Shown one piece after another: positions 9,706-41,375 of a stretch of 64,000 nucleotides of DNA (position 1 is its first letter; each line of letters opens with the position of its first letter). A program made the translations under genes and the position numbers. The stretch is from an uncultured Solirubrobacterales bacterium (lineage in GTDB: Bacteria; Actinomycetota; Thermoleophilia; Solirubrobacterales; 70-9), in contig OY969702.1 in assembly GCA_963702055.1 (NCBI GenBank), positions 1,912,301 through 1,976,300 of the forward strand, in the 5' to 3' direction. The notes beneath the pieces are model-generated. The model worked only from the letters and a program-made list of their open reading frames with translations. It had not been told where the DNA came from and made no database searches.

Positions 9706-9950
9706 GTCAACCGCCCTCCCACCTCCACCAGATCGCTTGACGGGCCATGAGGGCTCCTCGTCAAGGCTGGACCAGCGATACCCCCGCGGTCCATCTGTCC
9801 AGAACCAACACGAGCAAGTCGAACATACGTCCAGAGGGTCCGAATGCCGCTTAATGGTGCCGCAAACCAGCCGAAGACGCTTGCATGCGAGATTTGGCGA
9901 CAAGCCATTTGGCCTCCGGCCGCAGGACGCTCTGCTCTCGGCTCGCTTGG

Positions 9951-10973: not shown

Positions 10974-11063
10974 CAATAGGCGTGCTGTGCATGGTGCGGG
11001 ACTTCCTGTAACTTAGTTAAAGATTCGCCTTGTTCGTTGAGGGAGCAGCATGCCATACCCTAC

Positions 11064-11972: not shown

Positions 11973-12089
11973 GGCCTAGCCTTCCCTTGAAAGAGTCATT
12001 AGACGGACAATATAGCGTTGCAACCTTCACGCTGTGGGTGCCCTCCCTAGGGCACCCACCTTGGACCTGCGGTTGCTATTCTGAGCCAG

Positions 12090-26202: not shown

Positions 26203-26266
26203 CGGGCGTGCGTGGGGCTCGGGAATCGGCCCCGCAGTGGGCGGGGCCCTCCGTGAAAGGACGGCA

Positions 26267-29200
26267 ATGCCAGCCACCACCCGACCTTCCGAGCGTTCCC
26301 AGGCCAAGCGCGGAGCGCTCACCGGTGCCGCCCTCAGCGATGAGGTCTTCGACTCCTCCACCTCCCTGCTGCGCCCGACACGGGGGACCAATGCCGTCAC
26401 CGGCCTCCAGCAGTTCTTCGCTCCGGGTGAGGCCGCCGAGCTGATCGCCGCGGTCAACGGCCGCTCACTCAGCACCCTCGACCTGACCGCAGGTGACGGC
26501 GCCTTGCTCGCCGGGGTCGACCGAGAGGTCCGCTTCGGAATCGAGATCGACGCCGACCAGGCAACCGACGCCCCCTACACCGCGATCCAAGGCGACGTGC
26601 AGCGCGCCTACCCGCTGCTGCGGCTGCTGGGAACCGAATTCCCCCGCCTTGCCTGCAATCCCCCTTTCGGGCTCGACTGGGCGCCGAACGGTCACCGCGA
26701 GAACTCCACGCTCGCCACCTGGCGGATGGCGAGCGCGCTGCTTGCCGACTCCGGCGCCGGCGTGTTCATCGCCGGGCGCGATCGCTTCGCCCGCGAGATG
26801 ATGCCGCGACCCGACGCCGCCGGCGTCTATGCGCTGATCGAGTGTGCCGACCTCTTCGACGGGGTGGAGTTGCCCTGCCTGATCGCCTTCTTCGTGGCGG
26901 CCGACAACGTCGCCTCGCCACGCGAAGGAGGGCCGCTGCGCCTTGAGGCAGCTCGCGAGGAGCTGGCGGGGCTCGCGGAGGAGATCACTTCTGAGCGACG
27001 CCGGGTCGGCGCTCAGGTGATCGACTTGCCGCGCTGCCCTTACCGCGCCTCGCTGATCGAGCGCTTCGAGACGGTCGGCAAGGAGCTGGCCCGACGGCGT
27101 GAGTCCGCGGCCTCTACCCGCCAGCGCCATGACCTGGCGCTTCGCGGCAACCGCATCTCGGCGAGGCCGAGTCCCTTCGCCCGCCTCGCGCTCGGCCAGC
27201 GTCGCGTGCTTCGCAACGTCGAGCGCCTCCACGGCCAGCCGACCACCTACTTCGCGCTGAACCTGCGCGAGTGGCGCCAGCTCTACTCCCTCGCCGCCGA
27301 GGACGTCTTGACCTTGGAGCCGGCGCTGCGCGAAGCGGTCGCCGCAGCGACCGTGGCGGCCGAGCAGGCGGTCTGTCCGCTCTATGAGGTCCGCCCCCAG
27401 CAACGACTCGCCTTCCTCGATGACCTCGACTCGATCCGTTGCATCGCGCCCGATCCCGAGCGCGGCTTTGAGGCGGGGGAGAGCTACCCGCTCGCGACCT
27501 CTAGCGACGTTCAGCTCACCCACGCCGAGCGGCCCCACCAGAAGCGAAACGGCGACGTTGAGATTCGCCGCTACGAACACGAAGCCAAGGTGCTGCGGGT
27601 CGAGATCGACGGGCACGTATTCAACGAGTCCGCAGCCGACGTCGCCTATCTGCTGGGTCACTTCGAGCTGCCCGATCCCGGCGACCTGGCGACTCGCTTC
27701 CCTGAGCAGGTTGAGTCGGCGCGCGGCGTGCTGCGCCGCCTCGCCGATCGCCACGGGTTCGAGTTCAAGCGCTCCGATGCCGAGGACTGGCAGCTCGAGG
27801 ATCTGGCTCGCCTCCTCGTCAAGGGCTCGGGGGTGTTGGGCTGGGAGCAGGGGGGAGGCAAGAGCCTCGGCGGGGCGACCCTGATCCACGCCCAGTGGGA
27901 GCGCGGCGCCGCCCGCAAGGGCCTGATCGTCTGTCCCCAAGACCTGGTGCCGCAGTGGAAGCGCGAGATCAAGCGCTTCTATGACGAAGAGCCAGAGCAC
28001 ATCACCACCCCCGCCCAGGCAAGGGCGGTGGCCCGCCACCTGCGCCACGGCGGCCAGGGCCTCTACATCACCCACTACGAGGTGCTCTCGCTACTGGGCC
28101 GCGTCGATGAACCGTTGCCGGTCACGGCGATCCGCTCCCCCTCGATCGAGGGGGAGGACGCCGAGCGCCTCGCCCTTGACTCCGAGGAGTTCTGCCCCTC
28201 CTGCCTCGCCGATCACCACGCGGGCTGGCAGAAGCAGAGCCCCTACGTCTGCGAGCGCTGCGCCTACGTCCACAAGCGCCTGCGCGTAAAGACCGCCGCC
28301 CACTACCTGGCCGGCGCCTTCCACGACGGGGTGATCGTCGTCGATGAGGGAACCCTCGCCAAGGGCAACGACAGCCTGCGCTCCAAGGCGATCCGCGGCC
28401 TTCGAGCCCGCCACCGCTACCTGCTCACCGGCACCCCGATCTCCAACTACGTAAACGACGTCTTCTGGTTGCTGTGGTGGACGCTCGGCAACGCATCGCT
28501 GCGCTTCCCCTTCGACTACGAGGGCGGGCGGGCGAAGTTCGAGGCCGACTTTTGCGTGATCGAGTACTTCCGAAAAGGCGGCCGCCGCGAGGGCCGCAAG
28601 GTGCTCCCCCAGGTCACCAACGTCTCGCGCCTTTGGCGCTTGCTCTCCGGCGCGATGGTGCGCCGCCGCAAGCAGCACATGGGGGAGCTGCCGCCGCGCA
28701 CCATGCGAACGATCGCCGCTCCGATGGGAGAGGCCCAGCTCGACCTCTACAAGTTCTGGCTCTCCGCTCAGAACTTCGAGCGCTACTTCGCCTGGCGCCA
28801 CCCCGAGCACCCGCTGCTCGAAGCGGGCCTGGTCGAGCGCTTCGCCGCCGGCCTCGGCCAGCTGACCAAGCTGGAGTACGCGACGACCCTGCCCGAGGCA
28901 GACCCCGACCGCGAGTGGGAGGGGCTGGCCGAGCTGGCGCAATCCAACTGGACGCCGAAGAACCTCAAGGTTCTCCAGGTCGCCCTTGAGCACGTGAACC
29001 GCGGCGAGAAGGTGCTGATCGGATCGGACCTGATCGAGACCGGGCGCTGGCTATGCCAGCGGCTTTGCGAGAAGGGCGTCGACGCCACCCACATCGTCGA
29101 AGAGCGAGCGGGCCGGGCGGCGACGATGAATCCCCGTCGCCGCGCCAAGGCGATCGAGCGGTTCAAGACCGGCCCGACGCAGGTGCTCTGCTGCGGGATC

Positions 29201-29686
29201 CCCTCGATCCGCCTCGGCCACTCCCTGGAAGCGGCCTCCTGCGTGATCGCCAACGGGCTTGTTTTCTCCTATGAGATGTTCGATCAGTTCATCGCCCGCG
29301 CCTGGCGGCTCACCTCGCCGGGTCCGGTCTCCGTCTATGTGGCGCTGACGCTCGGTTCTCTTGACCCGAAGAAGTGGGAGCTGCTCTGTCAGAAGGCGAA
29401 GGCCGCCGATCTCGCCCTCGACGGGCAGCTGGTCGATGAGCCCGAGCAGCCGATCTCACGCGAGGAGTTCCTGCGCGAGCTGCGCCGCCAAGGGGTGAAG
29501 CCGAGCGGTGAGGAGATCGCCGAGGCCGACATCGAGGCGGCATGGGAAGCCACGGCGATGCTGGCGAGTAGCGCAGCTACGCAGCGGGCAACCTGCGGAG
29601 AAGGCGAGGGCTCTCAGCAGACAGTCGACTGGCACCGGGTCTCGGTGCAGGGCGCCGAGCAGCTCGATCTCTTCGCTGCGGCCTGA
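26267..29686 (+). CDS. Fusion protein: N6-adenine DNA methyltransferase-like domain plus SNF2-family helicase with an inserted zinc ribbon
   Basis: LDLTAGDGALLAG (motif I) and LACNPPFGLDW (motif IV NPPF). Helicase motifs GWEQGGGKSLGG, VVDEGTLAKG, LLTGTPISNYVNDVFWLLWW, plus a C-terminal helicase domain. Zinc ribbon CPSC..(17)..CERC. Confidence 0.85.
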   Translation: MPATTRPSERSQAKRGALTGAALSDEVFDSSTSLLRPTRGTNAVTGLQQFFAPGEAAELIAAVNGRSLSTLDLTAGDGALLAGVDREVRFGIEIDADQATDAPYTAIQGDVQRAYPLLRLLGTEFPRLACNPPFGLDWAPNGHRENSTLATWRMASALLADSGAGVFIAGRDRFAREMMPRPDAAGVYALIECADLFDGVELPCLIAFFVAADNVASPREGGPLRLEAAREELAGLAEEITSERRRVGAQVIDLPRCPYRASLIERFETVGKELARRRESAASTRQRHDLALRGNRISARPSPFARLALGQRRVLRNVERLHGQPTTYFALNLREWRQLYSLAAEDVLTLEPALREAVAAATVAAEQAVCPLYEVRPQQRLAFLDDLDSIRCIAPDPERGFEAGESYPLATSSDVQLTHAERPHQKRNGDVEIRRYEHEAKVLRVEIDGHVFNESAADVAYLLGHFELPDPGDLATRFPEQVESARGVLRRLADRHGFEFKRSDAEDWQLEDLARLLVKGSGVLGWEQGGGKSLGGATLIHAQWERGAARKGLIVCPQDLVPQWKREIKRFYDEEPEHITTPAQARAVARHLRHGGQGLYITHYEVLSLLGRVDEPLPVTAIRSPSIEGEDAERLALDSEEFCPSCLADHHAGWQKQSPYVCERCAYVHKRLRVKTAAHYLAGAFHDGVIVVDEGTLAKGNDSLRSKAIRGLRARHRYLLTGTPISNYVNDVFWLLWWTLGNASLRFPFDYEGGRAKFEADFCVIEYFRKGGRREGRKVLPQVTNVSRLWRLLSGAMVRRRKQHMGELPPRTMRTIAAPMGEAQLDLYKFWLSAQNFERYFAWRHPEHPLLEAGLVERFAAGLGQLTKLEYATTLPEADPDREWEGLAELAQSNWTPKNLKVLQVALEHVNRGEKVLIGSDLIETGRWLCQRLCEKGVDATHIVEERAGRAATMNPRRRAKAIERFKTGPTQVLCCGIPSIRLGHSLEAASCVIANGLVFSYEMFDQFIARAWRLTSPGPVSVYVALTLGSLDPKKWELLCQKAKAADLALDGQLVDEPEQPISREEFLRELRRQGVKPSGEEIAEADIEAAWEATAMLASSAATQRATCGEGEGSQQTVDWHRVSVQGAEQLDLFAAA

Positions 29687-29773: not shown

Positions 29774-30049
29774 ATGACCGATTCCCAGCTACATAAGCCG
29801 AGTCCGAAGCAACTGCGCTACCTCAGGGATCTGGCGATGCGCGCCGGCGAGTCCTTCGCCTACCCCGCCACATCCGCCGAGGCCGACCGTGAGATCAAGC
29901 GCCTGCGACGCAAGCGGCGCACCCCCAGCGCGGATCGTCGCCGCGAAGTTGCGGCCGTGAGGCGCGACATGGCCGAAGGCGGCGGCGACGGCGCGAGAGT
30001 CAGACGCGAAGAGCTCTGCGGCTATGGCGCCAGCGCCACCTGGAGGTAA
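29774..30049 (+). CDS. Hypothetical small basic protein
   Basis: MTDSQLHKPSPKQLRYLRDLAMRAGESFAYPATSAEADREIKRL. Start choice is uncertain (29702 or 29774). Confidence 0.4.
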   Translation: MTDSQLHKPSPKQLRYLRDLAMRAGESFAYPATSAEADREIKRLRRKRRTPSADRRREVAAVRRDMAEGGGDGARVRREELCGYGASATWR

Positions 30050-30680
30050 TCCGGTGGCGGGCGCCAATGCAGTCGCGCAGATGAGCCTGCTGGCGGCGCC
30101 GGCCGAGGGCCCCTTGGAGGTGCCGATCTGTTGGACGGTCCTTCACAGCGGCGCCGACGCCCGCCTTGGGCCAAGGAGCCCTCACCCGATGTTTGCCCAT
30201 CGTCACGTCCCCGCGATGCCGGCGAAGCTTCGCGACGAAGCCGAGTGGCTGGCGGCACTTGACTTCGCGGAGGAAGCCCGCCGCTACAACCAGGCCCCTC
30301 GCGCCAGGCTCGATCTCTCCGGGCGCGACGGCGCCGGCTCCAACGGGCCGATCGGGCGCGGCGGTCCCGACGGTCTTTCGTTGATGGCCTCGGGGCGTGG
30401 AATCGAAGTCGATGGCCGCCTCACAACCTGGCCCCAACTCCTCGCCGGGCGCTCCGAACAGCGAGAGGTAGAACCCGAGGTGGCTCGCGCCCGCGACCTC
30501 GCCGAGGCCTACCACTACCTCGACTACTACGGGCACGCCTATCCCGAGCCGGCTGAGGGCGATACCTGGAGCCCGGTCGCGCTGATCGCCCGGATCGCCG
30601 CCGAGGCCCGTGCGCTGGGCGGTGACCCCACCCAACTCCAACCCCGTTCCCACTACATGCGAGAGGGACTTTCGCGGTGA
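30024..30680 (+). CDS. Hypothetical protein
   Basis: Only ORF evidence and codon bias. Start uncertain (30024, 30081 or later). Confidence 0.3.
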   Translation: MAPAPPGGNPVAGANAVAQMSLLAAPAEGPLEVPICWTVLHSGADARLGPRSPHPMFAHRHVPAMPAKLRDEAEWLAALDFAEEARRYNQAPRARLDLSGRDGAGSNGPIGRGGPDGLSLMASGRGIEVDGRLTTWPQLLAGRSEQREVEPEVARARDLAEAYHYLDYYGHAYPEPAEGDTWSPVALIARIAAEARALGGDPTQLQPRSHYMREGLSR

Positions 30681-30792
30681 GCGCTGCCGATTGGGCCGCG
30701 CCGATCCCTCCCGATGCTGGCACGGCTTCGCCGCGCGGTCGGTCGGCAACCGGCCCGGCAAAGCGGCTGGGCCTCGAATCGGAGGTCTTGAG

Positions 30793-31320
30793 ATGACGAT
30801 CGACCCAGGACGTTTCACGCGAGCAGCGATCCACTGCGAAGCGGGCGAGGTCGAGGTGCGACTCAGCACCCAGGGCAACTGGCAGCTGAATGTCCGCGAC
30901 GCCGGCGAGTCGGAATGGCGGCTTGCTTGCAGTGGCGACCTTGACGGCGGCGTGGTTTCCCCGCAGCGCGACTTGTCGCGCGAGCCGGTTCGGCTCGGCG
31001 ACCTGCTGCTCGACCGCAAAGGGCGCCGAGTCCTGGTCGGCGATGCGGAAGTGGCGCTGCAGAACCGTGAGTACGAGCTGCTGGTGATGCTCGCCTCCCA
31101 GCCCGAGCGGGTCTTCTCGATCGCCGAGCTGCAGCGAGGTGCCTTCGGCTACGTCGATGCGGTCCCCACCTCGCGCACCGTGGCGAGCCATGCCAGTCGT
31201 CTGCGGGTGAGGCTGCGCGAAGCGGGAGCCGCGGGTTTCGTCGTCAACTGCCACGGCGTCGGTTACAAGCTTTGGGGTGGGGAGCGCCTTGCGGATGCTT
31301 CGGTGCGGTCGGCGGCCTGA
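30793..31320 (+). CDS. Stand-alone OmpR/PhoB-type winged-helix DNA-binding protein (no receiver domain)
   Basis: ATG follows GGAGG. C-terminal LQNREYELLVMLASQPERVFSIAELQRGAFG...SRTVASHASRLRVRLREAG...VGYKLW. Confidence 0.6.
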   Translation: MTIDPGRFTRAAIHCEAGEVEVRLSTQGNWQLNVRDAGESEWRLACSGDLDGGVVSPQRDLSREPVRLGDLLLDRKGRRVLVGDAEVALQNREYELLVMLASQPERVFSIAELQRGAFGYVDAVPTSRTVASHASRLRVRLREAGAAGFVVNCHGVGYKLWGGERLADASVRSAA

Positions 31321-31345
31321 CGGTTGACCCGTCTGCTTTCCTATA

Positions 31346-31359
31346 CGAACAGGTGTTCG
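31346..31359. promoter_or_regulatory. LexA (SOS/Cheo-type) box CGAACAGGTGTTCG immediately upstream of imuB
   Basis: Perfect GAAC-N4-GTTC palindrome ending 2 nt before the GTG start at 31361. Confidence 0.65.
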
Positions 31360-31360
31360 T

Positions 31361-32575
31361 GTGGTTGCTTGTGTCCTCATTCCTCGCTTCGCGCTTCGGG
31401 TCGCCAGCGGTGATCGGCTCGATCGTCTCGCTGCGCTCGCGCCGGCGCCCGGTGAGCGACAGGTGGTGGGGGAGGTTTCTCGTCTCGCTGAGAACGAGGG
31501 GGTTAGCGCCGGAATGGCCCTCGGCGAGGCCCTCGCCCGCTGTCCCTCGCTGCGACTCGTGGCGGCCGATCCGGCCCGCGTCGCCGAATCCTGGGAGGGA
31601 TTGTTGGTGCGGTTGGAGGGAATCGGCGCCGCGGTGGAGTCTGAGCGCCCCGGCGAGGCCTTCTTCGCGATCGACGGATTGCTGGGGATCCACGGCGGCG
31701 AGGTGGCGGGAGTCCTCGCGGCGGCGCGGGGGGCGACGGGAACGTCGGTGCGGATCGCCGCCGCCCCCACTCGCTTCGCCGCCTTTGCCGCCGCCCACAG
31801 AGGGTCGCGCCTGCCCCGTGGACTCTCGGGGTCAGGCGGGGCGGCGATCATCCCTGCCGCTGCGCTCGCCAAGTTCCTCGCTCCCCTGCCGGTCTCGGCG
31901 CTTCGGACCCGGCTGGGCCGCGAGCGCGAGGCTGTCGAGCTGATCGCCTCCCTGCGGCGGCTCGGGCTCGCCAGCCTCGGGGCACTCGCGGCGCTCCCTG
32001 CTTCGCAGGTCGCCGATCGCTTCGGCCCGCTCGGGCTGGCGGCGCTTCGCCTCGCCCGCGGCGAAGACGAGCCGCTGCGTCCGCGTTCGCCGCAGCTGGA
32101 GCTGGTTGCGGAAGTGGAACTGCCCGAGGGGATCGCCGGAAACCAGCTCGACCGCGCTCTCGAGCTGCTGGTCGAGCGCTTCCTCGCCTCCCCCCGGCGG
32201 CGGGGGAGGACCGTGTTGGCGCTTCGTCTCGGTGCACCGTTTTGTGACGGAGGGAGTTGGAGCGTCGATCAGGGGCTGGGTCGACCGACCGCTTCGGCTC
32301 AGACGATCACCGCGCTCCTCATCCCGAAGCTGGAGGCCCTGCCCCGGCCGGTGACGGCGTTGCGACTGCGGGCGCTCGCCCTGGGGCCCCCGGCCAGCGA
32401 TCAGCTCGCCTTCTCACTCGGCGGGAGCGAGTCCCGGCGCCGACGCCTCGCGGCGGCGGTGCGCGAGGTCCGCGCGGCGGCGGGAGCCGAGGCGCTGCTC
32501 AAGGTGATCGACGCCGAGCCTCGCTCCCGCGTCCCCGAGCGCCGCCTCCTGCTCACTCCCTATCCCGACCGATGA
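31361..32575 (+). CDS. imuB: ImuB-like Y-family polymerase homologue
   Basis: MVACVLIPRFALRVA...GEAFFAIDGLLGIHGG. Position directly upstream of dnaE2; SOS box. Confidence 0.8.
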   Translation: MVACVLIPRFALRVASGDRLDRLAALAPAPGERQVVGEVSRLAENEGVSAGMALGEALARCPSLRLVAADPARVAESWEGLLVRLEGIGAAVESERPGEAFFAIDGLLGIHGGEVAGVLAAARGATGTSVRIAAAPTRFAAFAAAHRGSRLPRGLSGSGGAAIIPAAALAKFLAPLPVSALRTRLGREREAVELIASLRRLGLASLGALAALPASQVADRFGPLGLAALRLARGEDEPLRPRSPQLELVAEVELPEGIAGNQLDRALELLVERFLASPRRRGRTVLALRLGAPFCDGGSWSVDQGLGRPTASAQTITALLIPKLEALPRPVTALRLRALALGPPASDQLAFSLGGSESRRRRLAAAVREVRAAAGAEALLKVIDAEPRSRVPERRLLLTPYPDR

Positions 32576-32817
32576 GCGCGGCCCGGCGGATCTATGCGCC
32601 GCGGCCGGTCGCCGTCGAGAGCGACGACGACGGCTCTCCCCGAGCGCTCGACGGTGTTGGCGTCGAGGCGATCCGCGAGGAGTGGGTGGTCGAGGATCGC
32701 TGGTGGACCGAGCGCCCTCTGCGCCGTCACTATTACGAGCTGGTCTTGGTCGACGGCCGCAACGTCACCGCCTTCCGCGACCTGCGCAGCGGGCGCTGGC
32801 ACCGCCAGGCGGCCTGA
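32572..32817 (+). CDS. Small conserved protein between imuB and dnaE2 (DUF6504-like, from memory)
   Basis: ATGA overlap with the imuB stop. ..IREEWVVEDRWWTERPLRRHYYELVLVDGRNVTAFRDLRSGRWHRQ. The stop overlaps the dnaE2 ATG by 1 nt. Confidence 0.55.
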   Translation: MSAARRIYAPRPVAVESDDDGSPRALDGVGVEAIREEWVVEDRWWTERPLRRHYYELVLVDGRNVTAFRDLRSGRWHRQAA

Positions 32818-35800
32818 TGACCGCCACCGCCCCCTACGTCGAGCTGCACGCCCACTCGGCCTTCTCCTTTCTCGACGGCGCTTCGACCCCGACCGAGCTT
32901 GCCGGGGAAGCGGCGGCGCTTGGTTACCCCGCCGTGGCGCTGACCGACCACGACGGGGTCTGGGGGTCGATGGAGTTCGCCCACGCCTGCAAGGGGCTGG
33001 GGGTGCGGCCGATCACCGGGGCGGAGCTGACCGTGGGATTGGGAGAAAGCGAGCCTGAGCTTGCCCACCTGACTCTCTTGGTCGAGTCGGCGACCGGTTA
33101 CCGCAACCTCTGTCGGCTGCTCACCGAGGCGCACTCCGGCACGCGGGAGGGCGCCCAGCGTCGCGCCGGACAGCCCTGGGTTCCCCTGGCGGCGGTCAAG
33201 GAGCGAGCCGAGGGGTTGGTCTGTCTGACCGGCTGCGCCCGCGATGGCGTCGTCGCCGGCCGCTGGGAGCGCGGCGAGCGCTCCGTGGCGGCGGCGCTCG
33301 CTCGTGAGCTGTTGGGCGCTTTCGGAGCGGAGCGGCTGCGGGTCGAGTTGCAGCGCCCCTACGAGCGCCACGATCGCGCCCGCAACCGCTGGCTCGCCGG
33401 GCTGGCCGAGCGGTTGGGAGTTCCCTGCGTGGTGAGCGGCGACGTCCACTGCCACGCCCGCTCGCGCTCGCGGCTGCAGGATGCCTTCGTCGCCGTCCGC
33501 AACGGCGTCGGGCTGGAGGAGTGTGAGCCCTTGCGCCGCGGCAACTCCAGTTCAGCCCTCGCCTCGCCGCAGGCGATGGCCGAGCGCTTCGCCGAGCACC
33601 CGGAGGCGGTTGCCGAAAGCGCGCGGCTCGCCGAGCGGCTGCGCTTCGACCTCACCGAGGAGCTGGGCTACCGCTATCCCGGCGCCGAGGACTCCGGCGC
33701 TGAGCGCAAGCTGGCCGAACTCAGCCGAGCGCTGCTGGCTGAACGCTACGCCGGCTCATCCGATCGGCCCGAAGCCGAGCGGCGCTTGGAGGAGGAGCTG
33801 GCGGTGATCCGGGGGCTCGGCCTCTCCGGCTTCTTTCTCCTCCACCGCGACTTGCTCGAGCTGGCGCGCGAGGTCGCGGTAGAGGTGCGGGGACCGGACT
33901 CGGCGCGCGCGATGCTGGCGCCGGGACGGGGGCGGGGCTCCAGCGTCAGCTCGATCGTCTGCTACCTGACCGGTCTCTCCCACATCGACCCGGTCAAGGC
34001 CGACCTCTTCGCCGCCCGCTTCCTCAACGAGGAGGTAACCGCCCTCCCAGACATCGACCTCGACTTCCCCCGCGACATCCGCGAGAAGCTGATCCCCGCG
34101 GTCCACCGCCGCTACGGCTCCGAGCACTCCGCGCTGGTCGCCGCCTTTCCCACCTACCGCCCGCGCGGCGCGGTGCGCGACCTCGGCAAGGCGTTGGGGT
34201 TGGCGGCCGGGGAGATCGAGCGGGTCGCGCGGATGGTCGGCTTTCACGGCGAGGCGGGGGAGATCGAGCGCCACGTCATCGAGGCGGTCGGGCGCGAGCG
34301 TGCCCGATCGCCGCGTTGGCGCTCGCTGGTCGCGTTGTGCGGGGAGGCGATCGGGCTGCCCCGCCATGTCTCCCAGCACCCGGGCGGGATGGTGATCTCG
34401 ACCCGGCCGCTGGTCGACGTCTGCCCGGTGGTGCCGGCGGCGATGGCGGGGCGCCAGATCGTCCAGTGGGACAAGGACTCCTGCGCCGACGCGGGCTTTT
34501 TGAAGATCGATCTGCTCGGGCTGGGAATGCTTTCGGCGGTCGAGCGCTGCGTCACCGAGATCGAGCGGGTGCGGGGCGAGCGGGTCGACCTCTCGCGCAT
34601 CCCCCACGACGATCCGCAGACCTTTGAGTCGATCCGGGCGGCGGAGACGACCGGCGTCTTTCAGATCGAGAGCCGGGCGCAGATGCAGATGCTGCCGCGC
34701 ACCCTGCCCCGCGACCTCGACGACCTCACCGTGCAGGTGGCGCTGGTGCGGCCCGGCCCGATCCAGGGCGGCGCCATCCACCCCTACATCGAGCGCCGCA
34801 AGGCGCTGCGCGAGGACCCCGGCTTCGAGGTCCCCTACGAGCACCCGCTGCTGGAGCCCGTGTTGAAGGAGACGCTGGGGACGATCGTCTTCCAGGAGCA
34901 GGTGATCGAGGTGGCGATGGCGCTGGCCGGCTTCTCGGCCTCAGAGGCCGAGGGGCTGCGGCGGGCGATGAGTCGCAAGCGCTCGGAGGCGGCGATCCGC
35001 TCTCACCACGAGCGCTTCTGTGCCGGGGCGGCGAAGCGCGGTGTAGCGGCCGAGGTCGCCGAGCGCGTCTGGCTCCAGATCCAGGGCTTCTCCGGCTTCG
35101 GCTTCCCGAAGGCGCACTCCGCTGCCTTCGGCCTGCTCGCCTACCAATCGGCCTGGCTGCGCGTCCACTACGGGGCCGAGTTCCTCTGCTCGCTGCTGAA
35201 CGAACAGCCGATGGGCTTCTACCCTCCCGACGCGCTGATCCACGAGGCCCAGCGGCGCGGGGTGAGGGTGGCGGCGGCCGACGTCAACCGCAGCGCCGTG
35301 CTCTGCGCGGTGGAACGCCGCCGCGGCGGGCTCGCGGTGCGGATCGGGCTCGCTTACGTCAAGGGCGTGCGCTCCGAGGAGATGGAGGCGCTGGTCGCCG
35401 AGCGGGCGCGCGGCGGCCCCTACCGGGGCATCGCCGACCTCGCCTCGCGCTCGGGCGCCGGCCGCGATGGGCTGGAGCAGCTGGTCTGGGCCGGGGCGCT
35501 CGACGGCCTTCCCCTGGAAGGGGGCGAGTCGAGCGAGCGCCGCCGCGAGGACTCTTGGCGACTCGGCGTCGCCGGGACCGCGCGGGGGGCCGATGGCGCC
35601 AGGCAGCTCTCCCTGCCCCTCGAGCCCCCGCCCGCGCCGGGGCTCTCGCCGTTGGGGCGCTGGGAGAGGGTGATCGAGGACTACCGCGCGACCGGGGTCA
35701 ACCTCGGCGAGCACCCGCTGGCCCTGTTGCGAGTGGCGCTGGGCGAGGGCGTCATCTCCAGCTCGGGGCTGGCGCGGATCGAGGACGGCGCCGCGGTTGA

Positions 35801-36206
35801 GGTCGCCGGCATGGTGATCGCCCGCCAGCGCCCCGAGACGGCGAAGGGGATCACCTTCATCCTGCTCGAAGACGAGCGGGGGACGATCAACCTGATCGTC
35901 GGGGCGGCGGTCTATGAGCGCAGCCGTGCTCTGGTCCGCGCCGCTCCGCTACTTCGCGCCCGTGGCCGCCTCGAGCGCCGCGAGGGAGCGATCAACGTCG
36001 TGGTCTTCGAGCTGGGCGCCTTGGAGTGGAGCGAGCGGCCCTCGGCCGAGGTGATGAGCATCGATTCGGCTGCGGTGAGTCAGTCGTCCGGTGTCGTGGG
36101 CGATCGTCACAACCTCGCCGAGTGTCGTCGCGCCCGTGAGCTGGCGGTCGCCGAGTTGCGAGCTGTAGCTCCTGCCGGGCACAGCTTCGGACGGCGGGGC
36201 CGGTAG
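32817..36206 (+). CDS. dnaE2: Error-prone DNA polymerase III alpha-type subunit DnaE2
   Basis: MTATAPYVELHAHSAFSFLDGASTPTELAGEAAALGYPAVALTDHDGVWG (PHP domain), PDIDLDF, GGMVIS, ~1129 aa, adjacent to imuB. Confidence 0.9.
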   Translation: MTATAPYVELHAHSAFSFLDGASTPTELAGEAAALGYPAVALTDHDGVWGSMEFAHACKGLGVRPITGAELTVGLGESEPELAHLTLLVESATGYRNLCRLLTEAHSGTREGAQRRAGQPWVPLAAVKERAEGLVCLTGCARDGVVAGRWERGERSVAAALARELLGAFGAERLRVELQRPYERHDRARNRWLAGLAERLGVPCVVSGDVHCHARSRSRLQDAFVAVRNGVGLEECEPLRRGNSSSALASPQAMAERFAEHPEAVAESARLAERLRFDLTEELGYRYPGAEDSGAERKLAELSRALLAERYAGSSDRPEAERRLEEELAVIRGLGLSGFFLLHRDLLELAREVAVEVRGPDSARAMLAPGRGRGSSVSSIVCYLTGLSHIDPVKADLFAARFLNEEVTALPDIDLDFPRDIREKLIPAVHRRYGSEHSALVAAFPTYRPRGAVRDLGKALGLAAGEIERVARMVGFHGEAGEIERHVIEAVGRERARSPRWRSLVALCGEAIGLPRHVSQHPGGMVISTRPLVDVCPVVPAAMAGRQIVQWDKDSCADAGFLKIDLLGLGMLSAVERCVTEIERVRGERVDLSRIPHDDPQTFESIRAAETTGVFQIESRAQMQMLPRTLPRDLDDLTVQVALVRPGPIQGGAIHPYIERRKALREDPGFEVPYEHPLLEPVLKETLGTIVFQEQVIEVAMALAGFSASEAEGLRRAMSRKRSEAAIRSHHERFCAGAAKRGVAAEVAERVWLQIQGFSGFGFPKAHSAAFGLLAYQSAWLRVHYGAEFLCSLLNEQPMGFYPPDALIHEAQRRGVRVAAADVNRSAVLCAVERRRGGLAVRIGLAYVKGVRSEEMEALVAERARGGPYRGIADLASRSGAGRDGLEQLVWAGALDGLPLEGGESSERRREDSWRLGVAGTARGADGARQLSLPLEPPPAPGLSPLGRWERVIEDYRATGVNLGEHPLALLRVALGEGVISSSGLARIEDGAAVEVAGMVIARQRPETAKGITFILLEDERGTINLIVGAAVYERSRALVRAAPLLRARGRLERREGAINVVVFELGALEWSERPSAEVMSIDSAAVSQSSGVVGDRHNLAECRRARELAVAELRAVAPAGHSFGRRGR

Positions 36207-36406
36207 GTCAGCCCAAGGCAGACCGACGATCAGCCTGCACAGGCCTCCGCAGAGGCAGGCCCGAATTCCTCACCTCAGGGTGGCACGCGCCGCCCGCGCT
36301 TCAACCCCGCAAGGGGGTTCCCCTCGCCTTCGGCTCGGTTCCGCACGTTCGGTCGCGCGCCCTACCTGGGCTCGTCAATCGAACCACCTCTAAAAGGAGG
36401 CCCCAA

Positions 36407-36769
36407 GTGCAGGACATCAACAGCGTCACCTTCACCGCCAGGCTGACCAGAGACCCCGAGCTCCGCTCCACGGCCTCGGGCAAATCCGTCAGCACCCTGC
36501 GGGTCGCGATTCAGCGCCCGGGCGGCAAGGACGGCTCCGACCGCGGCGCGGTTTTCTACGACGTCGAGGTCTGGAACGGGCTCGCCGAGAGCTGCACCCG
36601 CTACCTCTCCAAGGGCAGCCGGATCGCGGTCGAGGCTCGCCTCGAGCATCAGGAGTGGACCGACGATCACGAGAACGCGCGCCAGCGCAACTACGTGGTC
36701 GCGACCCAGGTCAACTTCCTCGATCCCGCGTCGAAGAAGGACGACGAGGAGCCTGGCGAGGACGAGTAG
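36407..36769 (+). CDS. ssb: Single-stranded DNA-binding protein (short, non-canonical acidic tail)
   Basis: INSVTFTARLTRDPELRSTASGKSVSTLRVAI...FYDVEVWNGLAESCTRYLSKGSRIAVEARLEHQEW (OB fold). AGGAGG lies 7 nt upstream of the GTG. The tail ...DDEEPGEDE lacks the DDDIPF-type tip. Confidence 0.85.
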   Translation: MQDINSVTFTARLTRDPELRSTASGKSVSTLRVAIQRPGGKDGSDRGAVFYDVEVWNGLAESCTRYLSKGSRIAVEARLEHQEWTDDHENARQRNYVVATQVNFLDPASKKDDEEPGEDE

Positions 36770-37896: not shown

Positions 37897-37904
37897 CGGG
37901 TTTG

Positions 37905-38094
37905 CGGCGGTCGGGGTTGGGTCAGTCGGCGAGTCCCGGCGAAGCTCGATCAGACCTGCATCGAGACCGTGTACGCAGTTCAGGCAGTGATCTGAGAGAC
38001 GAACGCTGGCTGCTGAATCGGAGCTTCGCAGCCCTGCGAGAGACCGATCGGGCCCTCTCTCGAAAGCTCTCCGCAACCCCAACCCCGACCGCCG
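37905..38094. promoter_or_regulatory. Candidate oriT region: perfect 16-bp inverted repeat arms (37905-37920 and 38079-38094) upstream of the relaxase
   Basis: CGGCGGTCGGGGTTGG ... 158 bp ... CCAACCCCGACCGCCG. It lies in the non-coding leader of the MOBF relaxase gene. Confidence 0.35.
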
Positions 38095-38156
38095 ACACAC
38101 TGTGCATCCTCCGGATCAACCGAGGCAACGCCCCCTCTCCGTGGACATCCAAGGTG

Positions 38157-41100
38157 ATGGTGGGCATGACGAAGATCCAGCGCGGCAACGCCAACTACTG
38201 GATTGAGGCGGTGGCCGAAGGCGGCGAGGACTACTACACCAAGCCCGGCGAGGCGCCAGGAGAGTGGCTGGGATCACTGGCGCGGGAGTTGGGCCTGGAA
38301 GGCCAGGTAGACCGCAACGCCTACATCGCCGCTCTCGCCGGCCACGACCCGGCCTCCGGCGAGGAGTTGATCCACCGCCCCGCCCCGCGCCGCTACGTCG
38401 ACTCGGGTGGCCGCCAACGGGTAGCCGAGCCCGTCCTCGGCTACGACGTGCGCTTCGCGGCGCCGAAGTCGGTCTCCCTGCTCTACGGGGTCGGCGAGCC
38501 CGAGGTCCGCGGCGCGGTGCTGCGCGCCCACGACAGCGCCGTCGCCGAGGGGATCGGCTACCTGGAGGAGCAGGCCTGCCTGGTCCAGCGCGGCCACAAC
38601 GGCACCGAGATCGAGCGCGGATCGGGCTTGCTCGGGATGGCCTTCCGCCACCGGATGAGTCGCGCCGGTGACCCGGCGCTGCATACCCACGTGGTGGTCG
38701 CCAACCAGACCCGCGCCGCCTCCGACGGCCATTGGCTGACCCTGGCCAGCCCCAAGGGCCGCTCTCCCTTTTGGCAGCACGCGAAAGCTGCCGGCTACGT
38801 CTACCAGGCGGCGCTGCGGCGCGAGGTGGCGCGCGAGTTGGGTGTCGAGTGGGGCCCGGTCCGAAACGGCCACGCCGACCTCGCCGCGATCGGGCGTCCC
38901 GTGATCGAGCACTTCTCCCAGCGCCGCAGCGAGATCCTCGAGTCGATGGAGCGCTTCGGCGCCTCCTCGGCGAAGGCCGCCGAGGTCGCCGCATACCGAA
39001 CGCGAGATGCCAAGGACTACGGGGTCGACGTCGACACCCGGCGCGAGGAGTGGACCGCGAGAGCGGCGGAGTTCGGCCTGACTCCGCGTGGGATCGGCGA
39101 GCTGGTTCGCGAGGCGGTTCCGCGCGAGGCGGCGACGATCTCCCCCGCTGACGTGGCCGCCGCCCTGGCGAAGCTGGAGAGCCACCGCTCCCACTTCGAC
39201 CGCCGCGACTTGCTCTGCGCGCTCGCCGACCGCCTCCCCGACGGCGCCGAGGGACGCTCGCTCGCTACCGCTGTCGATGGGCTGTTGGTGAGCGAGGCGG
39301 TGGTCGAGATCCATCGCGGCTCCGACCTGATCGCCCCCACCTACTACACGACCCCGCGGCTTTGGGAGCTTGAGCAGGGGTTCATCGAGACGGCGAAGCG
39401 GGGGCAGGGCGCCGGCGCCGCGGTGGTCGACGAGCGGACCCTCGCCGCAGTGCTGGAGCGCCACCGCTACCTCGGGGAGGACCAGCGCGAGATGGTCGCC
39501 CGCCTGCTGCGCGGCGGCGAGCGGATCGTCCCGGTCGCGGCGCTGCCGGGCACCGGCAAGACGACGGCGCTGCGAGCGGCGCGGGAGGCATGGGAGGAAG
39601 CCGGGTACCCGGTGATCGGCGTCGCCACCGCGCGCAGCGCCTCGGGCGAGCTCTCCGACGCCGGCGTGCCGGCCACCTCGATCGCGGCGCTGCTGGTTCG
39701 CGCCGAGCGCTGGGCTCAGAACGGCCTTGAGCCGCTTGAGCCAGGAACCGTCGTCTTGGCCGATGAGTCGAGTACCACCGCGACTCCGCACGCCGCGGCG
39801 CTGGCGGAGATGGTCGAGCGCTGCGGCGGCAAGCTGGTCGCGATCGGTGACCCGCGCCAGATCGGCGCGGTCGGCCCGGGTGGCACCTACGGGCACCTGA
39901 CCAAGGTGATCGAGCCGAGCGTCCTGCGCGAGATCCGTCGCCAGCGCCGTCCCGTCGATCGGCGGATTGTCGAGTTGGCCCACGCCGGTCGGGGCTCCGA
40001 CGCGCTCGACCTGCTGCGCTCCGAGGGCCAGCTGGCGATTGCCGACACCCTCCCCGAGGCGCTCGGCGCGGCGGTGCTCGACTGGCACGAGTCCTTCGGG
40101 CGCGGGGAGGACGCGGTGATGATCGCGCGGCGAAACCGCGATGTCGCCGAGCTAAACGCCGCGGCGCGGGAGGCCCTGGTCGCCGACGGGCGTCTGGGGG
40201 ACGCGGAGCTGGAAGTCGCCGGGCACCCCTTTGCGCTCGGCGACCGGGTGCTGACCCGGGTTAACACTCACGAGGTCTCAAACCGCGAGCGCTGGGAGGT
40301 AATCGGCGTCGATTTGGGCGGCTGCTCGGTCGAGCTGCAGCGGATCGGTGGCGACGAGCGGATCGTCAGCCTCGACGCCGCCTACCTGGAGCAGCGCACC
40401 CCGAGCGGCGAGCCGGCGCTCCAGCACGCCTACGCGATGACCACCTACGCAACCGAGTCGAAGACCTTCGAGCGCGCCTTCGCCTTGATCGACGCCGGCG
40501 CCACCCAGGAGGAGTTCCTGGTCTCGGTTTCGCGCAGTCGCGGCCCAACCGTCGCCTACGGGGTCGCCGCGATCGAGCTGACCGATCCCGAGCTGGGGCC
40601 GGGGCTGCGCGAGATCTCCGACGAGGCCCACGAGCTGCGCGCCGCCGCCGAGCGCCCGGCCGGAGAGTTGGCGGCGCTTGAGGTCCCCATCCGCGAGCGG
40701 CTCGCCGAGCTGGAGGAGGTCGACCTGATGGCCCGGCGCTCCTACCTTGAGTACGAGCTGGAGAAGCTGGATCAGCCCTCCGCCGAGCGCCTACGCCTCG
40801 ACTCGGTCGAGGAGCAGATCGCCGAGGTCGAGGGACTGCTCAAGGACTACGCGAGTCAGCTGGAGGAGTTGGCGGCGCAGCGGCGCCCCGACCCCCAGGA
40901 GCTCAACCGGGTCGAGGGCGCGCAACGGCTCGGATCACAGCAGCTGGAGCGGTTGGGGGAGGAGCGCGAAGGCCTGATCGAGGCGGTGGGGGTCGAGCGG
41001 CCGGCGTCTCCGCAGCGGGAGGCCGAGCTGCGGGTGGAGACGGCAATGGTCGAGGAGCGCCTCACCCAGCTGCGCCGTCGCCAGATCGCCGCCGAGCGCC

Positions 41101-41375
41101 TGCAGCCCTCGGCAATGATCGAGAAGGCGCTGGGAGAGCGTCCCCGCGAAGCCGATCGGGCGGCGCTGTGGAACGAGGGAGTGGAGACGATCTATTCCTA
41201 CCGCCAGCGCCATGGGATCAGCTCGCGCAGCGGCGAACCGCTCGGGCGGGAGCCCCACCCCGGTCAGGACCGCAGCGATTGGGTCAAGAGCCAGCTCCGG
41301 CTCAGTCAGGTCCAGGTGGCGCTCGATCACACGCCGGCGCGAGAGGTCGAGCGGGGGATCGCTATCGAGATGTAG
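38157..41375 (+). CDS. MOBF-family conjugative relaxase (TrwC/TraA-like) fused to a RecD-like helicase, with C-terminal coiled-coil
   Basis: GGEDYYTKPGE (Tyr motif), YDVRFAAPKSVSLLYG, FRHRMSRAGDPALHTHVVVAN (His motif), helicase ALPGTGKTTAL / VVLADESS. Start is 38154 GTG or 38157 ATG. Confidence 0.9.
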   Translation: MVGMTKIQRGNANYWIEAVAEGGEDYYTKPGEAPGEWLGSLARELGLEGQVDRNAYIAALAGHDPASGEELIHRPAPRRYVDSGGRQRVAEPVLGYDVRFAAPKSVSLLYGVGEPEVRGAVLRAHDSAVAEGIGYLEEQACLVQRGHNGTEIERGSGLLGMAFRHRMSRAGDPALHTHVVVANQTRAASDGHWLTLASPKGRSPFWQHAKAAGYVYQAALRREVARELGVEWGPVRNGHADLAAIGRPVIEHFSQRRSEILESMERFGASSAKAAEVAAYRTRDAKDYGVDVDTRREEWTARAAEFGLTPRGIGELVREAVPREAATISPADVAAALAKLESHRSHFDRRDLLCALADRLPDGAEGRSLATAVDGLLVSEAVVEIHRGSDLIAPTYYTTPRLWELEQGFIETAKRGQGAGAAVVDERTLAAVLERHRYLGEDQREMVARLLRGGERIVPVAALPGTGKTTALRAAREAWEEAGYPVIGVATARSASGELSDAGVPATSIAALLVRAERWAQNGLEPLEPGTVVLADESSTTATPHAAALAEMVERCGGKLVAIGDPRQIGAVGPGGTYGHLTKVIEPSVLREIRRQRRPVDRRIVELAHAGRGSDALDLLRSEGQLAIADTLPEALGAAVLDWHESFGRGEDAVMIARRNRDVAELNAAAREALVADGRLGDAELEVAGHPFALGDRVLTRVNTHEVSNRERWEVIGVDLGGCSVELQRIGGDERIVSLDAAYLEQRTPSGEPALQHAYAMTTYATESKTFERAFALIDAGATQEEFLVSVSRSRGPTVAYGVAAIELTDPELGPGLREISDEAHELRAAAERPAGELAALEVPIRERLAELEEVDLMARRSYLEYELEKLDQPSAERLRLDSVEEQIAEVEGLLKDYASQLEELAAQRRPDPQELNRVEGAQRLGSQQLERLGEEREGLIEAVGVERPASPQREAELRVETAMVEERLTQLRRRQIAAERLQPSAMIEKALGERPREADRAALWNEGVETIYSYRQRHGISSRSGEPLGREPHPGQDRSDWVKSQLRLSQVQVALDHTPAREVERGIAIEM

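What the first reader, a model, noticed from the sequence alone, without database searches (positions are those of the whole stretch)
30793..36206. SOS-box-controlled imuB / small ORF / dnaE2 mutagenesis cassette carried inside a conjugative element, without a recognisable imuA
A perfect Cheo/mycobacterial-type LexA box CGAACAGGTGTTCG (31346-31359) ends 2 nt before the imuB GTG. That implies a leaderless or near-leaderless, LexA-repressed transcript. imuB, an 81-aa ORF (..EEWVVEDRWWTERPLRRHYYEL..) and dnaE2 are joined by ATGA and TGATG overlaps. The usual upstream imuA/imuA' (RecA-fold) gene is missing. Its place is taken by a stand-alone OmpR-type winged-helix protein. The cassette sits between an anti-restriction-type methylase/helicase and ssb-nuclease-oriT-relaxase, in what looks like the leading region of a conjugative element. 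Damage-inducible mutagenesis would then be horizontally transferable and possibly expressed on entry as ssDNA.
Basis: partly seen in the sequence, partly recalled or inferred. Interest (0 to 1): 0.6.

Follow-up and report, generated by a model that had tools for sequence, protein, structure and literature searches.

The report
SOS mutagenesis cassette carried on an ICE
A conjugative element in a soil actinobacterium (order Solirubrobacterales) carries a DNA-damage-controlled error-prone polymerase operon of an already described type that never has imuA, so this is a well-documented new example and not a new kind of system.

Summary
A perfect LexA box, CGAACAGGTGTTCG (31346-31359), lies 1 nt before the GTG of a catalytically dead Y-family polymerase gene. 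That gene is chained by ATGA and TGATG overlaps to an 81-aa gene and to dnaE2.

The missing imuA is not an anomaly. [quoted passage not shown] The trio "inactive PolY + ImuB-C + DnaE2, no ImuA, RecA presumed" is described in the literature (2013, 2019, 2026).

In 79 of 80 Solirubrobacterales loci the same three genes occur together. In 75 of those 79 a perfect box abuts the start codon, usually in chromosomal contexts.

The OmpR-type protein and the 218-aa ORF are genes of the mobile element, not ImuA substitutes.

New here: the cassette is the host's only copy. It lies within a 5.6-kb insertion in the variable slot between ORF218 and ssb of a MOBF conjugative element. The element sits in an 81.6-kb island at tRNA-Val. 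Sister elements have that slot empty or filled with ArdC-type genes.

Expression from incoming single-stranded DNA is not supported. The promoter looks like an ordinary double-stranded, leaderless, LexA-occluded one.

The parts
31324..31329 (+). Candidate -35 hexamer TTGACC of the cassette promoter
   Evidence: TTGA starts 22 nt before the box in 35 of 76 aligned cassettes. With a 17-nt spacer the -10 (GAACAg) falls inside the left half of the box. This is an inference; the strict sigma-70 scan found nothing.
31346..31359 (.). LexA operator (Cheo-type box) CGAACAGGTGTTCG
   Evidence: One match in the window against 0.16 expected and 10 in the genome. The host lexA carries CGAACAAGTGTTCG. A perfect box is conserved directly before the imuB start in 75 of 79 loci.
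31361..32575 (+). imuB-like inactive Y-family polymerase (iPolY), 404 aa. It carries a clamp-type motif QLAFSL (residues 348-353) and a RecA-NT-like helix (residues 358-381).
   Evidence: PF00817 at 30 bits. In the alignment to Pol IV (6jun) the catalytic DE reads GE, and the N-terminus VLIPRF lacks the Asp pair. The start codon position is shared with ATG in relatives. Motifs.
32572..32817 (+). Standalone ImuB C-terminal domain (ImuB-C, a divergent DUF6504), 81 aa
   Evidence: More than 800 standalone homologues. Fused Y-family + this-domain proteins exist: P0163 (525 aa) and P0196 (484 aa). Five of 128 relatives hit PF20114. hhalign to the canonical ImuB C-terminus gives E=1.2e-3 over 73-81 columns. 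The AF2 model is all-beta, pLDDT 87.6, with no PDB fold match.
32817..36206 (+). dnaE2, error-prone Pol III alpha-type polymerase, 1129 aa
   Evidence: NF004225 at 982.5 bits, above the cut-off of 939. PHP, DNA_pol3_alpha, finger, HHH_6 and OB domains are present. The PDIDLDF active-site motif is present. The replicative dnaE1 lies elsewhere, at genome 505547.
30671..36251 (.). 5.58-kb segment present here but absent from sister element L093: the winged-helix gene plus the whole cassette, inserted in the ORF218|ssb slot
   Evidence: Nucleotide synteny with L092, L093 and L094 stops at 30661-30671 and resumes at 36243-36251. In L093 only 150 nt separate these two points.
30793..31320 (+). Stand-alone OmpR-type winged-helix protein; an accessory gene of the mobile element, not part of the cassette
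   Evidence: PF00486. Paralogs of 61% at genome 1015291 and 2201393; the first is about 1.2 kb from a MobF relaxase gene at 1016534. Absent from all 80 related cassette loci.
30024..30680 (+). ORF218, a conserved backbone gene of this ICE family with unknown function; not ImuA'
   Evidence: No Pfam, NCBIfam, PHROG or PDB match. It has 154 homologues. In L092, L093, L094 and G004 it lies after the SNF2 gene without an adjacent cassette.
26237..29686 (+). SNF2-family helicase fusion protein (1149 aa), ICE backbone
   Evidence: PF00176 and PF00271. 79-82% nucleotide identity with sister ICEs.
36245..36406 (-). Conserved non-coding hairpin element just after the cassette and before ssb
   Evidence: Five copies from four elements fold to one long hairpin with a consensus energy of -67 kcal/mol. 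One copy in the host, two in L094 and two in G004. No Rfam match.
36407..36769 (+). SSB of the element
   Evidence: PF00436 at 84.5 bits.
37902..41375 (+). MOBF (TrwC-type) relaxase-helicase
   Evidence: PF08751 at 245.9 bits; NF041492 MobF at 222 bits.
50205..51938 (-). Type IV coupling protein
   Evidence: PF02534 at 148 bits and PF12696, found on the ORF 50205-52319. The adjacent gene 51935-53308 has weak VirB4/TraG-type P-loop matches.

Best explanation
The locus is a self-contained SOS mutagenesis operon of the split-ImuB type. It encodes an inactive Y-family polymerase scaffold with a clamp motif and a RecA-NT-like helix. It also encodes a separate 81-aa ImuB-C beta-barrel and the error-prone polymerase DnaE2.

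There is no ImuA. The host RecA is presumed to take that role, as proposed in the literature for this type.

Transcription starts at or within a few bases of the imuB start codon, giving a leaderless mRNA. The promoter's -10 lies inside the LexA operator, so LexA blocks RNA polymerase until DNA damage triggers LexA cleavage. The two downstream genes are translationally coupled through 4-nt and 1-nt overlaps.

This three-gene unit, with the same operator and promoter, is the standard chromosomal arrangement across Solirubrobacterales. In this genome the unit from its -35 to its stop codon (about 4.9 kb) is instead cargo. It lies within a 5.58-kb insertion in the variable slot between ORF218 and ssb of a MOBF/T4SS integrative conjugative element. 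The element sits in an 81.6-kb island at tRNA-Val. This is the genome's only copy, and the chromosomal site used by related genomes is empty.

Shown: gene identities, box conservation, insertion boundaries, single copy, and the ICE context. Inferred: LexA binding, the leaderless start, the RecA partnership, polymerase activity, and the direction of transfer.
For: - **Gene identities and overlaps:**
- **ImuB-C assignment:** fused homologues; weak PF20114 hits in relatives; a colinear hhalign to the canonical ImuB C-terminus, which carries PF20114; an all-beta model with no PDB match, as reported for ImuB-C in PMC12926913; an invariant C-terminal Trp and invariant Arg residues, as described in PMC3765255.
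- **No ImuA but RecA, LexA and DinB present:**
- **Lineage-wide module with the box at the start codon:**
- **Published description of iPolY + ImuB-C + DnaE2 without ImuA:**
- **ICE context:** relaxase, coupling protein, SSB and integrase; 70-bp direct repeats at tRNA-Val.
- **Cargo status:** sister ICEs without the cassette and exact insertion boundaries.
- **Second ICE-borne example:** another cassette inside attL/attR in G004.
- **Single copy and empty ancestral site:**
Against: - The direct Pfam DUF6504 model does not hit orf81, even at E<=10. Profile-profile support is weak: probability 19%, E=1.2e-3.
- The RecA-NT-like match is modest: 8 of 24 identical, reached by 65 of 5000 shuffles.
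- The strict sigma-70 scan finds no promoter. The window's -10 reads GAACAG, lacking the usual final T.
- The ImuA model also failed to reach its cut-off in the Caulobacter control, so the 'no ImuA' result rests on a test of limited sensitivity.
- There are no expression or binding data.
- I did not verify the VirB4 ATPase strongly or the oriT, so the element's ability to transfer is unproven.
Confidence: 0.8

Rival explanations
1. The cassette serves as an establishment function of the element. Being in the leading region and oriented like ssb, it would be expressed at entry, either from the incoming single strand or just after second-strand synthesis while the recipient's SOS response is on. 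That would give transconjugants a burst of translesion synthesis or mutagenesis.
For: The cassette lies 0.2-5 kb from ssb, on the side opposite the relaxase and T4SS. It has the same orientation as the SNF2, ORF218 and ssb genes. Sister ICEs carry ArdC anti-restriction genes in the same slot. A conserved hairpin element lies just downstream. Translesion operons commonly flank leading-region islands (PMC11541004). Plasmid imuABC causes transient hypermutagenesis after transfer (PMC4151985).
Against: The promoter and operator are the same as in chromosomal copies. No hairpin promoter precedes the cassette: the fold z-scores are 0.7 and -0.44. The conserved hairpin lies after dnaE2 and would serve ssb. 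The nick site and transfer direction are not established. In G004 the cassette sits at the far end of the element next to attL, and in L093 the slot is empty, so the element does not need the cassette.
Confidence: 0.12
2. One of the upstream ORFs (ORF218 or the winged-helix protein) is a highly divergent ImuA/ImuA' that completes a canonical three-protein mutasome.
For: Both lie directly upstream on the same strand. ORF218 has no recognisable family.
Against: Neither gene accompanies any of 80 related cassettes. ORF218 is conserved after the SNF2 gene in sister ICEs without the cassette, and in G004 it lies 10 kb from the cassette. The winged-helix protein is a DNA-binding OmpR-type domain with paralogs elsewhere in the genome, one next to another relaxase gene. 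The ImuA model hits only RecA.
Confidence: 0.03
3. The 81-aa ORF is an artefact: a frameshifted or mis-assembled C-terminus of a full-length imuB, making a pseudogene.
For: Fused full-length forms exist, namely P0163 and P0196.
Against: The split form, at about 81 aa, is found in more than 800 protein clusters and in 79 of 80 genome loci, often with the same start/stop overlap. Conservation is strong along the whole small protein. GC3 is 0.88.
Confidence: 0.02
4. The cassette belongs to the chromosome and the conjugative element merely inserted next to it.
For: In most relatives the cassette is chromosomal.
Against: Element backbone genes flank it on both sides with nucleotide-level synteny to sister ICEs. 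It lies 36 kb and 40 kb inside the 70-bp direct repeats. The ancestral RCC1/CHASE2 site in this genome lacks it.
Confidence: 0.02

Closest known systems
iPolY + standalone ImuB-C + DnaE2 module without ImuA (Kyrpidia tusciae type, Timinskas & Venclovas 2019, PMC6511836; 'DnaE2X' systems, PMC12926913; first noted by Aravind et al. 2013, PMC3765255)
   Same: The gene content and order match: an inactive Y-family polymerase with a RecA-NT-like motif, a separate small ImuB-C protein and DnaE2. There is no imuA in the genome, RecA is present, and the operon is linked to the SOS response.
   Different: This copy is carried as cargo of a conjugative element. The ImuB-C is so divergent that Pfam DUF6504 misses it. 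I did not test membership of the phylogenetic DnaE2X group. The papers call the group small, whereas here it is near-universal in one order (33 of 41 relatives, and 522 relatives confirmed by tblastn in the scan).
Canonical imuA-imuB-dnaE2 (imuABC) and the mycobacterial imuA'-imuB / dnaE2 mutasome
   Same: Both are LexA-controlled. Both use a dead Y-family scaffold with a clamp motif, an ImuB-C domain and DnaE2 as the working polymerase.
   Different: Here there is no ImuA/ImuA', and ImuB is split into two genes.
Plasmid-borne imuABC (pRalta imuA2B2C2, PMC4151985; Caulobacter sp. FWC26 conjugative plasmid p1, NZ_CP033873)
   Same: An SOS mutagenesis cassette travels on a conjugative replicon, and transfer can bring mutagenesis to the recipient.
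   Different: Those are canonical three-gene cassettes with imuA, on proteobacterial plasmids. This one is the ImuA-less split type on an actinobacterial integrative element.
umuDC / mucAB / rumAB-type Pol V operons bordering leading-region anti-defence islands of plasmids and ICEs (PMC11541004)
   Same: A translesion polymerase operon sits next to ssb, methylase and anti-restriction genes near the origin of transfer.
   Different: The polymerase system differs (DnaE2-based, not Pol V). Here the operon is co-oriented with ssb, whereas 90% of umu operons are not oriented for T-strand transcription.

Membership tests
ImuA-less split-ImuB mutasome (iPolY + ImuB-C + DnaE2 + RecA) | Y-family polymerase homologue with a disrupted active site | tested here: met
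   PF00817 at 30 bits. The catalytic DE aligns to GE and the N-terminal Asp pair is absent.
ImuA-less split-ImuB mutasome (iPolY + ImuB-C + DnaE2 + RecA) | RecA-NT-like motif in the C-terminal tail of the Y-family protein, after a clamp-binding motif | tested here: inconclusive
   QLAFSL at residues 348-353. Residues 358-381 against host RecA 18-41 give 8 of 24 identical, a score reached by 65 of 5000 shuffles.
ImuA-less split-ImuB mutasome (iPolY + ImuB-C + DnaE2 + RecA) | Separate small protein of the ImuB-C (DUF6504) family | tested here: inconclusive
   The direct PF20114 search finds nothing. Support comes from fused homologues, 5 of 128 relatives hitting PF20114, hhalign E=1.2e-3 over the full length, and an all-beta model with a conserved C-terminal Trp.
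ImuA-less split-ImuB mutasome (iPolY + ImuB-C + DnaE2 + RecA) | DnaE2 (error-prone C-family polymerase) in the same operon | tested here: met
   NF004225 at 982.5 bits, above the cut-off of 939. The start codon overlaps the orf81 stop.
ImuA-less split-ImuB mutasome (iPolY + ImuB-C + DnaE2 + RecA) | No imuA in the genome; recA present | tested here: met
   NF033429 hits only RecA, below its cut-off (the model was also weak on the control genomes). recA scores 528 bits.
ImuA-less split-ImuB mutasome (iPolY + ImuB-C + DnaE2 + RecA) | DnaE2 belongs to the phylogenetic DnaE2X group | not tested
Canonical ImuA-ImuB-DnaE2 cassette | An imuA/imuA' (RecA-fold) gene in the cassette, and ImuB with a fused C-terminal domain | tested here: not met
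   No ImuA. ImuB is split at the ATGA overlap.
LexA (SOS) regulon, Cheo-type operator | Operator matching CGAAC-N4-GTTCG at the promoter, of the same type as on the host's own lexA | tested here: met
   Conserved in 75 of 79 orthologous loci.
LexA (SOS) regulon, Cheo-type operator | LexA binding and damage induction | not testable with these tools
   No binding or expression data are available. The genome looks like an uncultured soil organism's: all close relatives are metagenome-assembled genomes.
Integrative conjugative element (MOBF relaxase, type IV secretion) | Relaxase, coupling protein, VirB4-type ATPase, integrase, and flanking direct repeats at a tRNA gene | tested here: met
   Relaxase. 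Coupling protein and tyrosine integrase at genome 1978589-1979839. VirB4/TraG-type P-loop, weak only at 26.1 bits. 70-bp repeats at tRNA-Val, genome 1907021 and 1988653.
Leading region of a conjugative element | First-transferred side of oriT; genes on the transferred strand; ssb and anti-restriction content | tested here: inconclusive
   Gene content and orientation fit. The nick site and transfer direction were not determined.

The most novel reading that the evidence does not exclude
This ICE family uses the ORF218|ssb slot of its leading region as a swap site for establishment cargo. In some lineages it has captured the host order's own LexA-controlled split-ImuB/DnaE2 operon. On this reading, conjugation-triggered SOS in a new host would switch the operon on at entry. 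The element would both restore translesion synthesis to hosts that lost the chromosomal copy, as this one has, and transiently raise mutation rates in transconjugants.
Probability: 0.15. Interest if true: 0.6.

Novelty: new member of a known kind. Interest (0 to 1): 0.33.

Why it matters
This result clears up an apparent anomaly. A DnaE2 cassette without imuA is a published architecture in which ImuB is split and RecA is the presumed partner.

It adds three modest points:
- This architecture is the rule across Solirubrobacterales. It comes with a strikingly fixed design in which the LexA operator, the -10 element and the start codon overlap.
- The unit can move as a 4.9-kb promoter-to-stop module into conjugative elements. 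Two well-delimited cases are this genome and G004.
- In this genome the mobile copy is the only one.

If the element transfers, error-prone repair in this group of soil bacteria is a horizontally exchangeable trait. That parallels Pol V operons and imuABC on proteobacterial plasmids.

Tried and rejected
- **Direct family searches for orf81.** Pfam searches, including E<=10 and a six-frame PF20114 search, found nothing. A PDB sequence search and a Foldseek search of the AF2 model gave no significant match.
- **Narrow profile comparisons.** hhalign of the narrow orf81 profile against one canonical ImuB, or against a narrow alphaproteobacterial ImuB-C profile, was insignificant. Only the broader profile gave a colinear alignment.
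- **BLASTP-short of the ImuB tail against the RecA N-terminus.** This gave fragmented alignments, so I replaced it with an ungapped score and a shuffle test.
- **Strict sigma-70 scan.** No promoter was found.
- **Repeats around the cassette.** No flanking direct or inverted repeats and no tRNA-like remnant were found around the cassette in the window.
- **Other SOS boxes in the element.** One-mismatch boxes occur only at chance level.
- **Single-strand hairpin promoter upstream of the cassette.** Folds of 30685-30795 on either strand are no better than shuffles.
- **ORF218.** It has no match in Pfam, NCBIfam, PHROGs or PDB sequences. I did not model its structure because the comparative evidence already separates it from the cassette.
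- **recA upstream region.** There is no perfect box within 650 nt upstream. recA follows another gene, so its operator, if any, was not located.

Full report
**1. What is in the sequence**

The window is bases 1912301-1976300 of a single-contig genome of 2.56 Mb and 69% G+C.

- CGAACAGGTGTTCG occupies 31346-31359. One T follows, then the GTG at 31361 of a 404-aa ORF.
- That ORF ends in an ATGA overlap with an 81-aa ORF (32572-32817). The TGA of the 81-aa ORF overlaps the ATG at 32817 of a 1129-aa ORF that ends at 36206.
- The 404-aa protein is a weak but above-threshold Y-family polymerase (PF00817, 30 bits).
- The 1129-aa protein passes the NCBIfam cut-off for 'error-prone DNA polymerase' (NF004225, 982.5 against 939). 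It has the full PHP / Pol III alpha / finger / HhH / OB domain set.
- The upstream ORF 30793-31320 carries an OmpR-type winged helix. ORF 30024-30680 matches nothing.

**2. The box is a real operator type in this host, and it is conserved**

- The perfect pattern occurs once in the window, against 0.16 expected. It occurs ten times in the genome.
- The genome has a single lexA (233.6 bits, genome 945376-945975). CGAACAAGTGTTCG lies 42 nt before its ATG.
- In 80 related loci fetched from public Solirubrobacterales genomes, 79 show imuB-like, orf81 and dnaE2 together. The 80th is cut at a contig end.
- In 75 of those 79, a perfect CGAAC-N4-GTTCG sits directly before the imuB start, 1 nt before it in most.
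- The aligned consensus is TTGA-N18-ATACGAACATACGTTCGTATG. TTGA starts 22 nt before the box in 35 of 76 sequences.
- With a 17-nt spacer the -10 is GAACAT, inside the operator. The start codon is part of the extended palindrome.
- I infer a leaderless or near-leaderless mRNA whose promoter is occluded by LexA. This is not shown. The strict sigma-70 scan finds no promoter, and in the window the -10 reads GAACAG.

**3. Why there is no imuA**

*The Y-family protein*
- It has lost catalytic carboxylates. DE aligns to GE against Pol IV, and the N-terminus reads VLIPRF.
- It keeps a clamp-type motif QLAFSL at residues 348-353.
- That is followed by a helix resembling the N-terminus of the host RecA: 8 of 24 identical, reached by 65 of 5000 shuffles.

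*The 81-aa protein*
- It belongs to a large family of standalone proteins of about 81 aa (836 hits; 1118 representatives at E<=0.001).
- A few relatives are fused to the C-terminus of the same kind of dead Y-family protein: P0163 (525 aa) and P0196 (484 aa).
- Canonical ImuB proteins carry Pfam DUF6504 (PF20114) at that position.
- orf81 itself does not hit PF20114, but five of 128 family members do.
- A broad family profile aligns colinearly with the canonical ImuB C-terminus over 73-81 columns (E=1.2e-3).
- The AF2 model is an all-beta domain (pLDDT 87.6) with no PDB neighbour. PMC12926913 reports the same for ImuB-C.
- The invariant C-terminal Trp and Arg residues fit the description in PMC3765255.

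*Other genes in the genome*
- An ImuA model hits only RecA.
- recA and a separate active-looking dinB are present.

*Literature*
- This composition is published: inactive PolY + standalone ImuB-C + DnaE2, no ImuA, RecA presumed.
- PMC3765255 notes solo ImuB-C with DnaE2 and an inactive DinB.
- PMC6511836 describes the Kyrpidia-type operon.

**4. The upstream genes are not substitutes for ImuA**

- None of the 80 related cassettes has the winged-helix gene or ORF218 nearby. In chromosomal copies the upstream neighbour is a divergent RCC1-repeat gene.
- The winged-helix protein has two 61% paralogs elsewhere in the genome. One is about 1.2 kb from another MobF relaxase gene.
- ORF218 has 154 homologues. 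In three sister elements (L092, L093, L094) and in G004 it follows the SNF2 gene and two small ORFs, as here, without the cassette beside it.

**5. The mobile element and the insertion**

*ICE genes around the cassette*
- An SNF2 fusion protein, SSB, a nuclease and a MobF relaxase flank it.
- A coupling protein, a weak VirB4/TraG-type ATPase and a pilin-like gene lie further along in the window.
- A lytic transglycosylase and a tyrosine integrase lie just beyond the window end.

*Island boundaries*
- A 70-bp sequence occurs three times: at genome 1905702, at 1907021 and at the intact gene at 1988653.
- It consists of the promoter and 5' half of tRNA-Val.
- These repeats bound an 81.6-kb island, with the cassette in its middle.

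*Synteny with sister elements*
- Nucleotide synteny runs through the SNF2 gene (79-82%) and ORF218 (71-76%). It stops at 30661-30671 and resumes at 36243-36251, just before ssb.
- In L093 only 150 nt lie between these points. In L092 and L094 the slot holds ArdC and other small genes.
- So 30671-36251, comprising the winged-helix gene plus the cassette, is an insertion in a variable slot. The cassette proper, from its -35 to its stop codon, is about 4.9 kb.

*A second case*
- In G004 the cassette (69%, 63% and 78% protein identity for the three proteins) lies just inside attL of a related ICE.
- That ICE is bounded by tRNA-Met and a 43-bp repeat of its 3' part.
- L016 and L035 also have mobile-element genes nearby.

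*DnaE2 tree*
- The window copy falls in a well-supported 20-member clade together with chromosomal copies.
- It is not sister to the G004 copy. That favours separate captures, though the tree alone cannot settle this.

**6. The host's own site is empty**

- The cassette is single-copy in this genome.
- In a group of related genomes it lies beside a CHASE2 cyclase and an RCC1-repeat gene.
- The host keeps those two genes, with 74-78% nucleotide identity over 5.5 kb. Synteny ends exactly where the cassette would begin.
- The only same-genus genome held (82% complete) has no ImuB, whereas 33 of 41 relatives have one.

**7. Leading region and early expression**

- Gene content (SSB, SNF2 fusion, ArdC in sister elements, DprA in some) and uniform orientation toward the relaxase fit a leading region. 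I did not determine the nick site.
- The region before the cassette shows no hairpin better than shuffles.
- A conserved hairpin element of about 130 nt lies after dnaE2 and before ssb. It would serve ssb, not the cassette.
- The cassette's promoter is the same as in chromosomal copies.
- I therefore rate expression from single-stranded DNA as unlikely. De-repression during a conjugation-induced SOS response remains possible, but only as an inference.

**8. Comparison and verdict**

- Mobile SOS mutagenesis cassettes are well known. Error-prone polymerase genes are annotated on many plasmid records, including a canonical imuA-imuB-dnaE2 on a conjugative Caulobacter plasmid.
- Plasmid imuABC drives transient hypermutagenesis after transfer (PMC4151985).
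- Pol V operons border leading-region islands (PMC11541004).
- The present locus is a new, well-delimited example in which the ImuA-less split-ImuB type is the cargo, in an actinobacterial ICE.
- I file it as a new member of a known kind, of moderate-to-low interest.

Noticed in passing
window 36245-36406 (also L094:14599-14765 and 16594-16743; L092:13093-13267; L093:10748-10909): A non-coding element of about 130 nt before ssb is far more conserved than the flanking genes. It folds into one long imperfect hairpin on the minus strand, with a consensus energy of -67 kcal/mol over five copies. There is one copy in this genome and two copies in each of two sister ICEs. It has no Rfam match. It could be a single-strand promoter or a priming site of the leading region.
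   Followed up: partly
window 30695-30773: A short intergenic sequence (41-67 nt) before the winged-helix gene recurs once in L092 and three times in L094, each time ahead of a cargo gene in the same slot. It shows no significant fold. It may be a shared promoter or a recombination site for cargo exchange.
   Followed up: partly
genome 1905702-1905771, 1907021-1907090 and 1988653-1988723 (outside the window; window -6598, -5279 and 76353): The island's direct repeats are the promoter plus the 5' half of tRNA-Val up to the anticodon loop, and the intact gene is at the right end. An identity block on the 5' side of a tRNA gene is unusual. The three copies imply a 1.3-kb remnant element in tandem.
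   Followed up: partly
genome 1016534-1018972 and 1808714-1810897 (outside the window): Two more MobF relaxase genes, each with a nearby coupling-protein gene, show that this 2.56-Mb genome holds at least three conjugative or mobilisable elements.
   Followed up: no
G004 contig 6, about 160000-160060 (locus L089:5000-5060): A sequence resembling the 3' half of a tRNA lies about 100 nt after the dnaE2 stop in the G004 ICE. This hints that the cassette there is a separate 6-kb module accreted between two att-like sites.
   Followed up: no
L002/L049 (cassette at 7642-13635): In one genome an AAA_14/DUF4143 gene on the opposite strand is inserted between imuB and the ImuB-C gene. In several Thermoleophilaceae loci (L041, L042, L047, L060) dnaE2 starts 2-6 kb after the ImuB-C gene, so the operon tolerates insertions.
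   Followed up: no
genome 228052-228065 (outside the window): Another perfect box, CGAACATATGTTCG, has a GTG overlapping its last base. No qualifying ORF starting there was found, so whether other host SOS genes share the operator-over-start-codon design is open.
   Followed up: no
window 43383-44678 and 42778-43386: A macrolide-type glycosyltransferase (EryCIII-like/GT28) with a TetR regulator lies inside the conjugative element between the relaxase and the T4SS genes, as further cargo.
   Followed up: no
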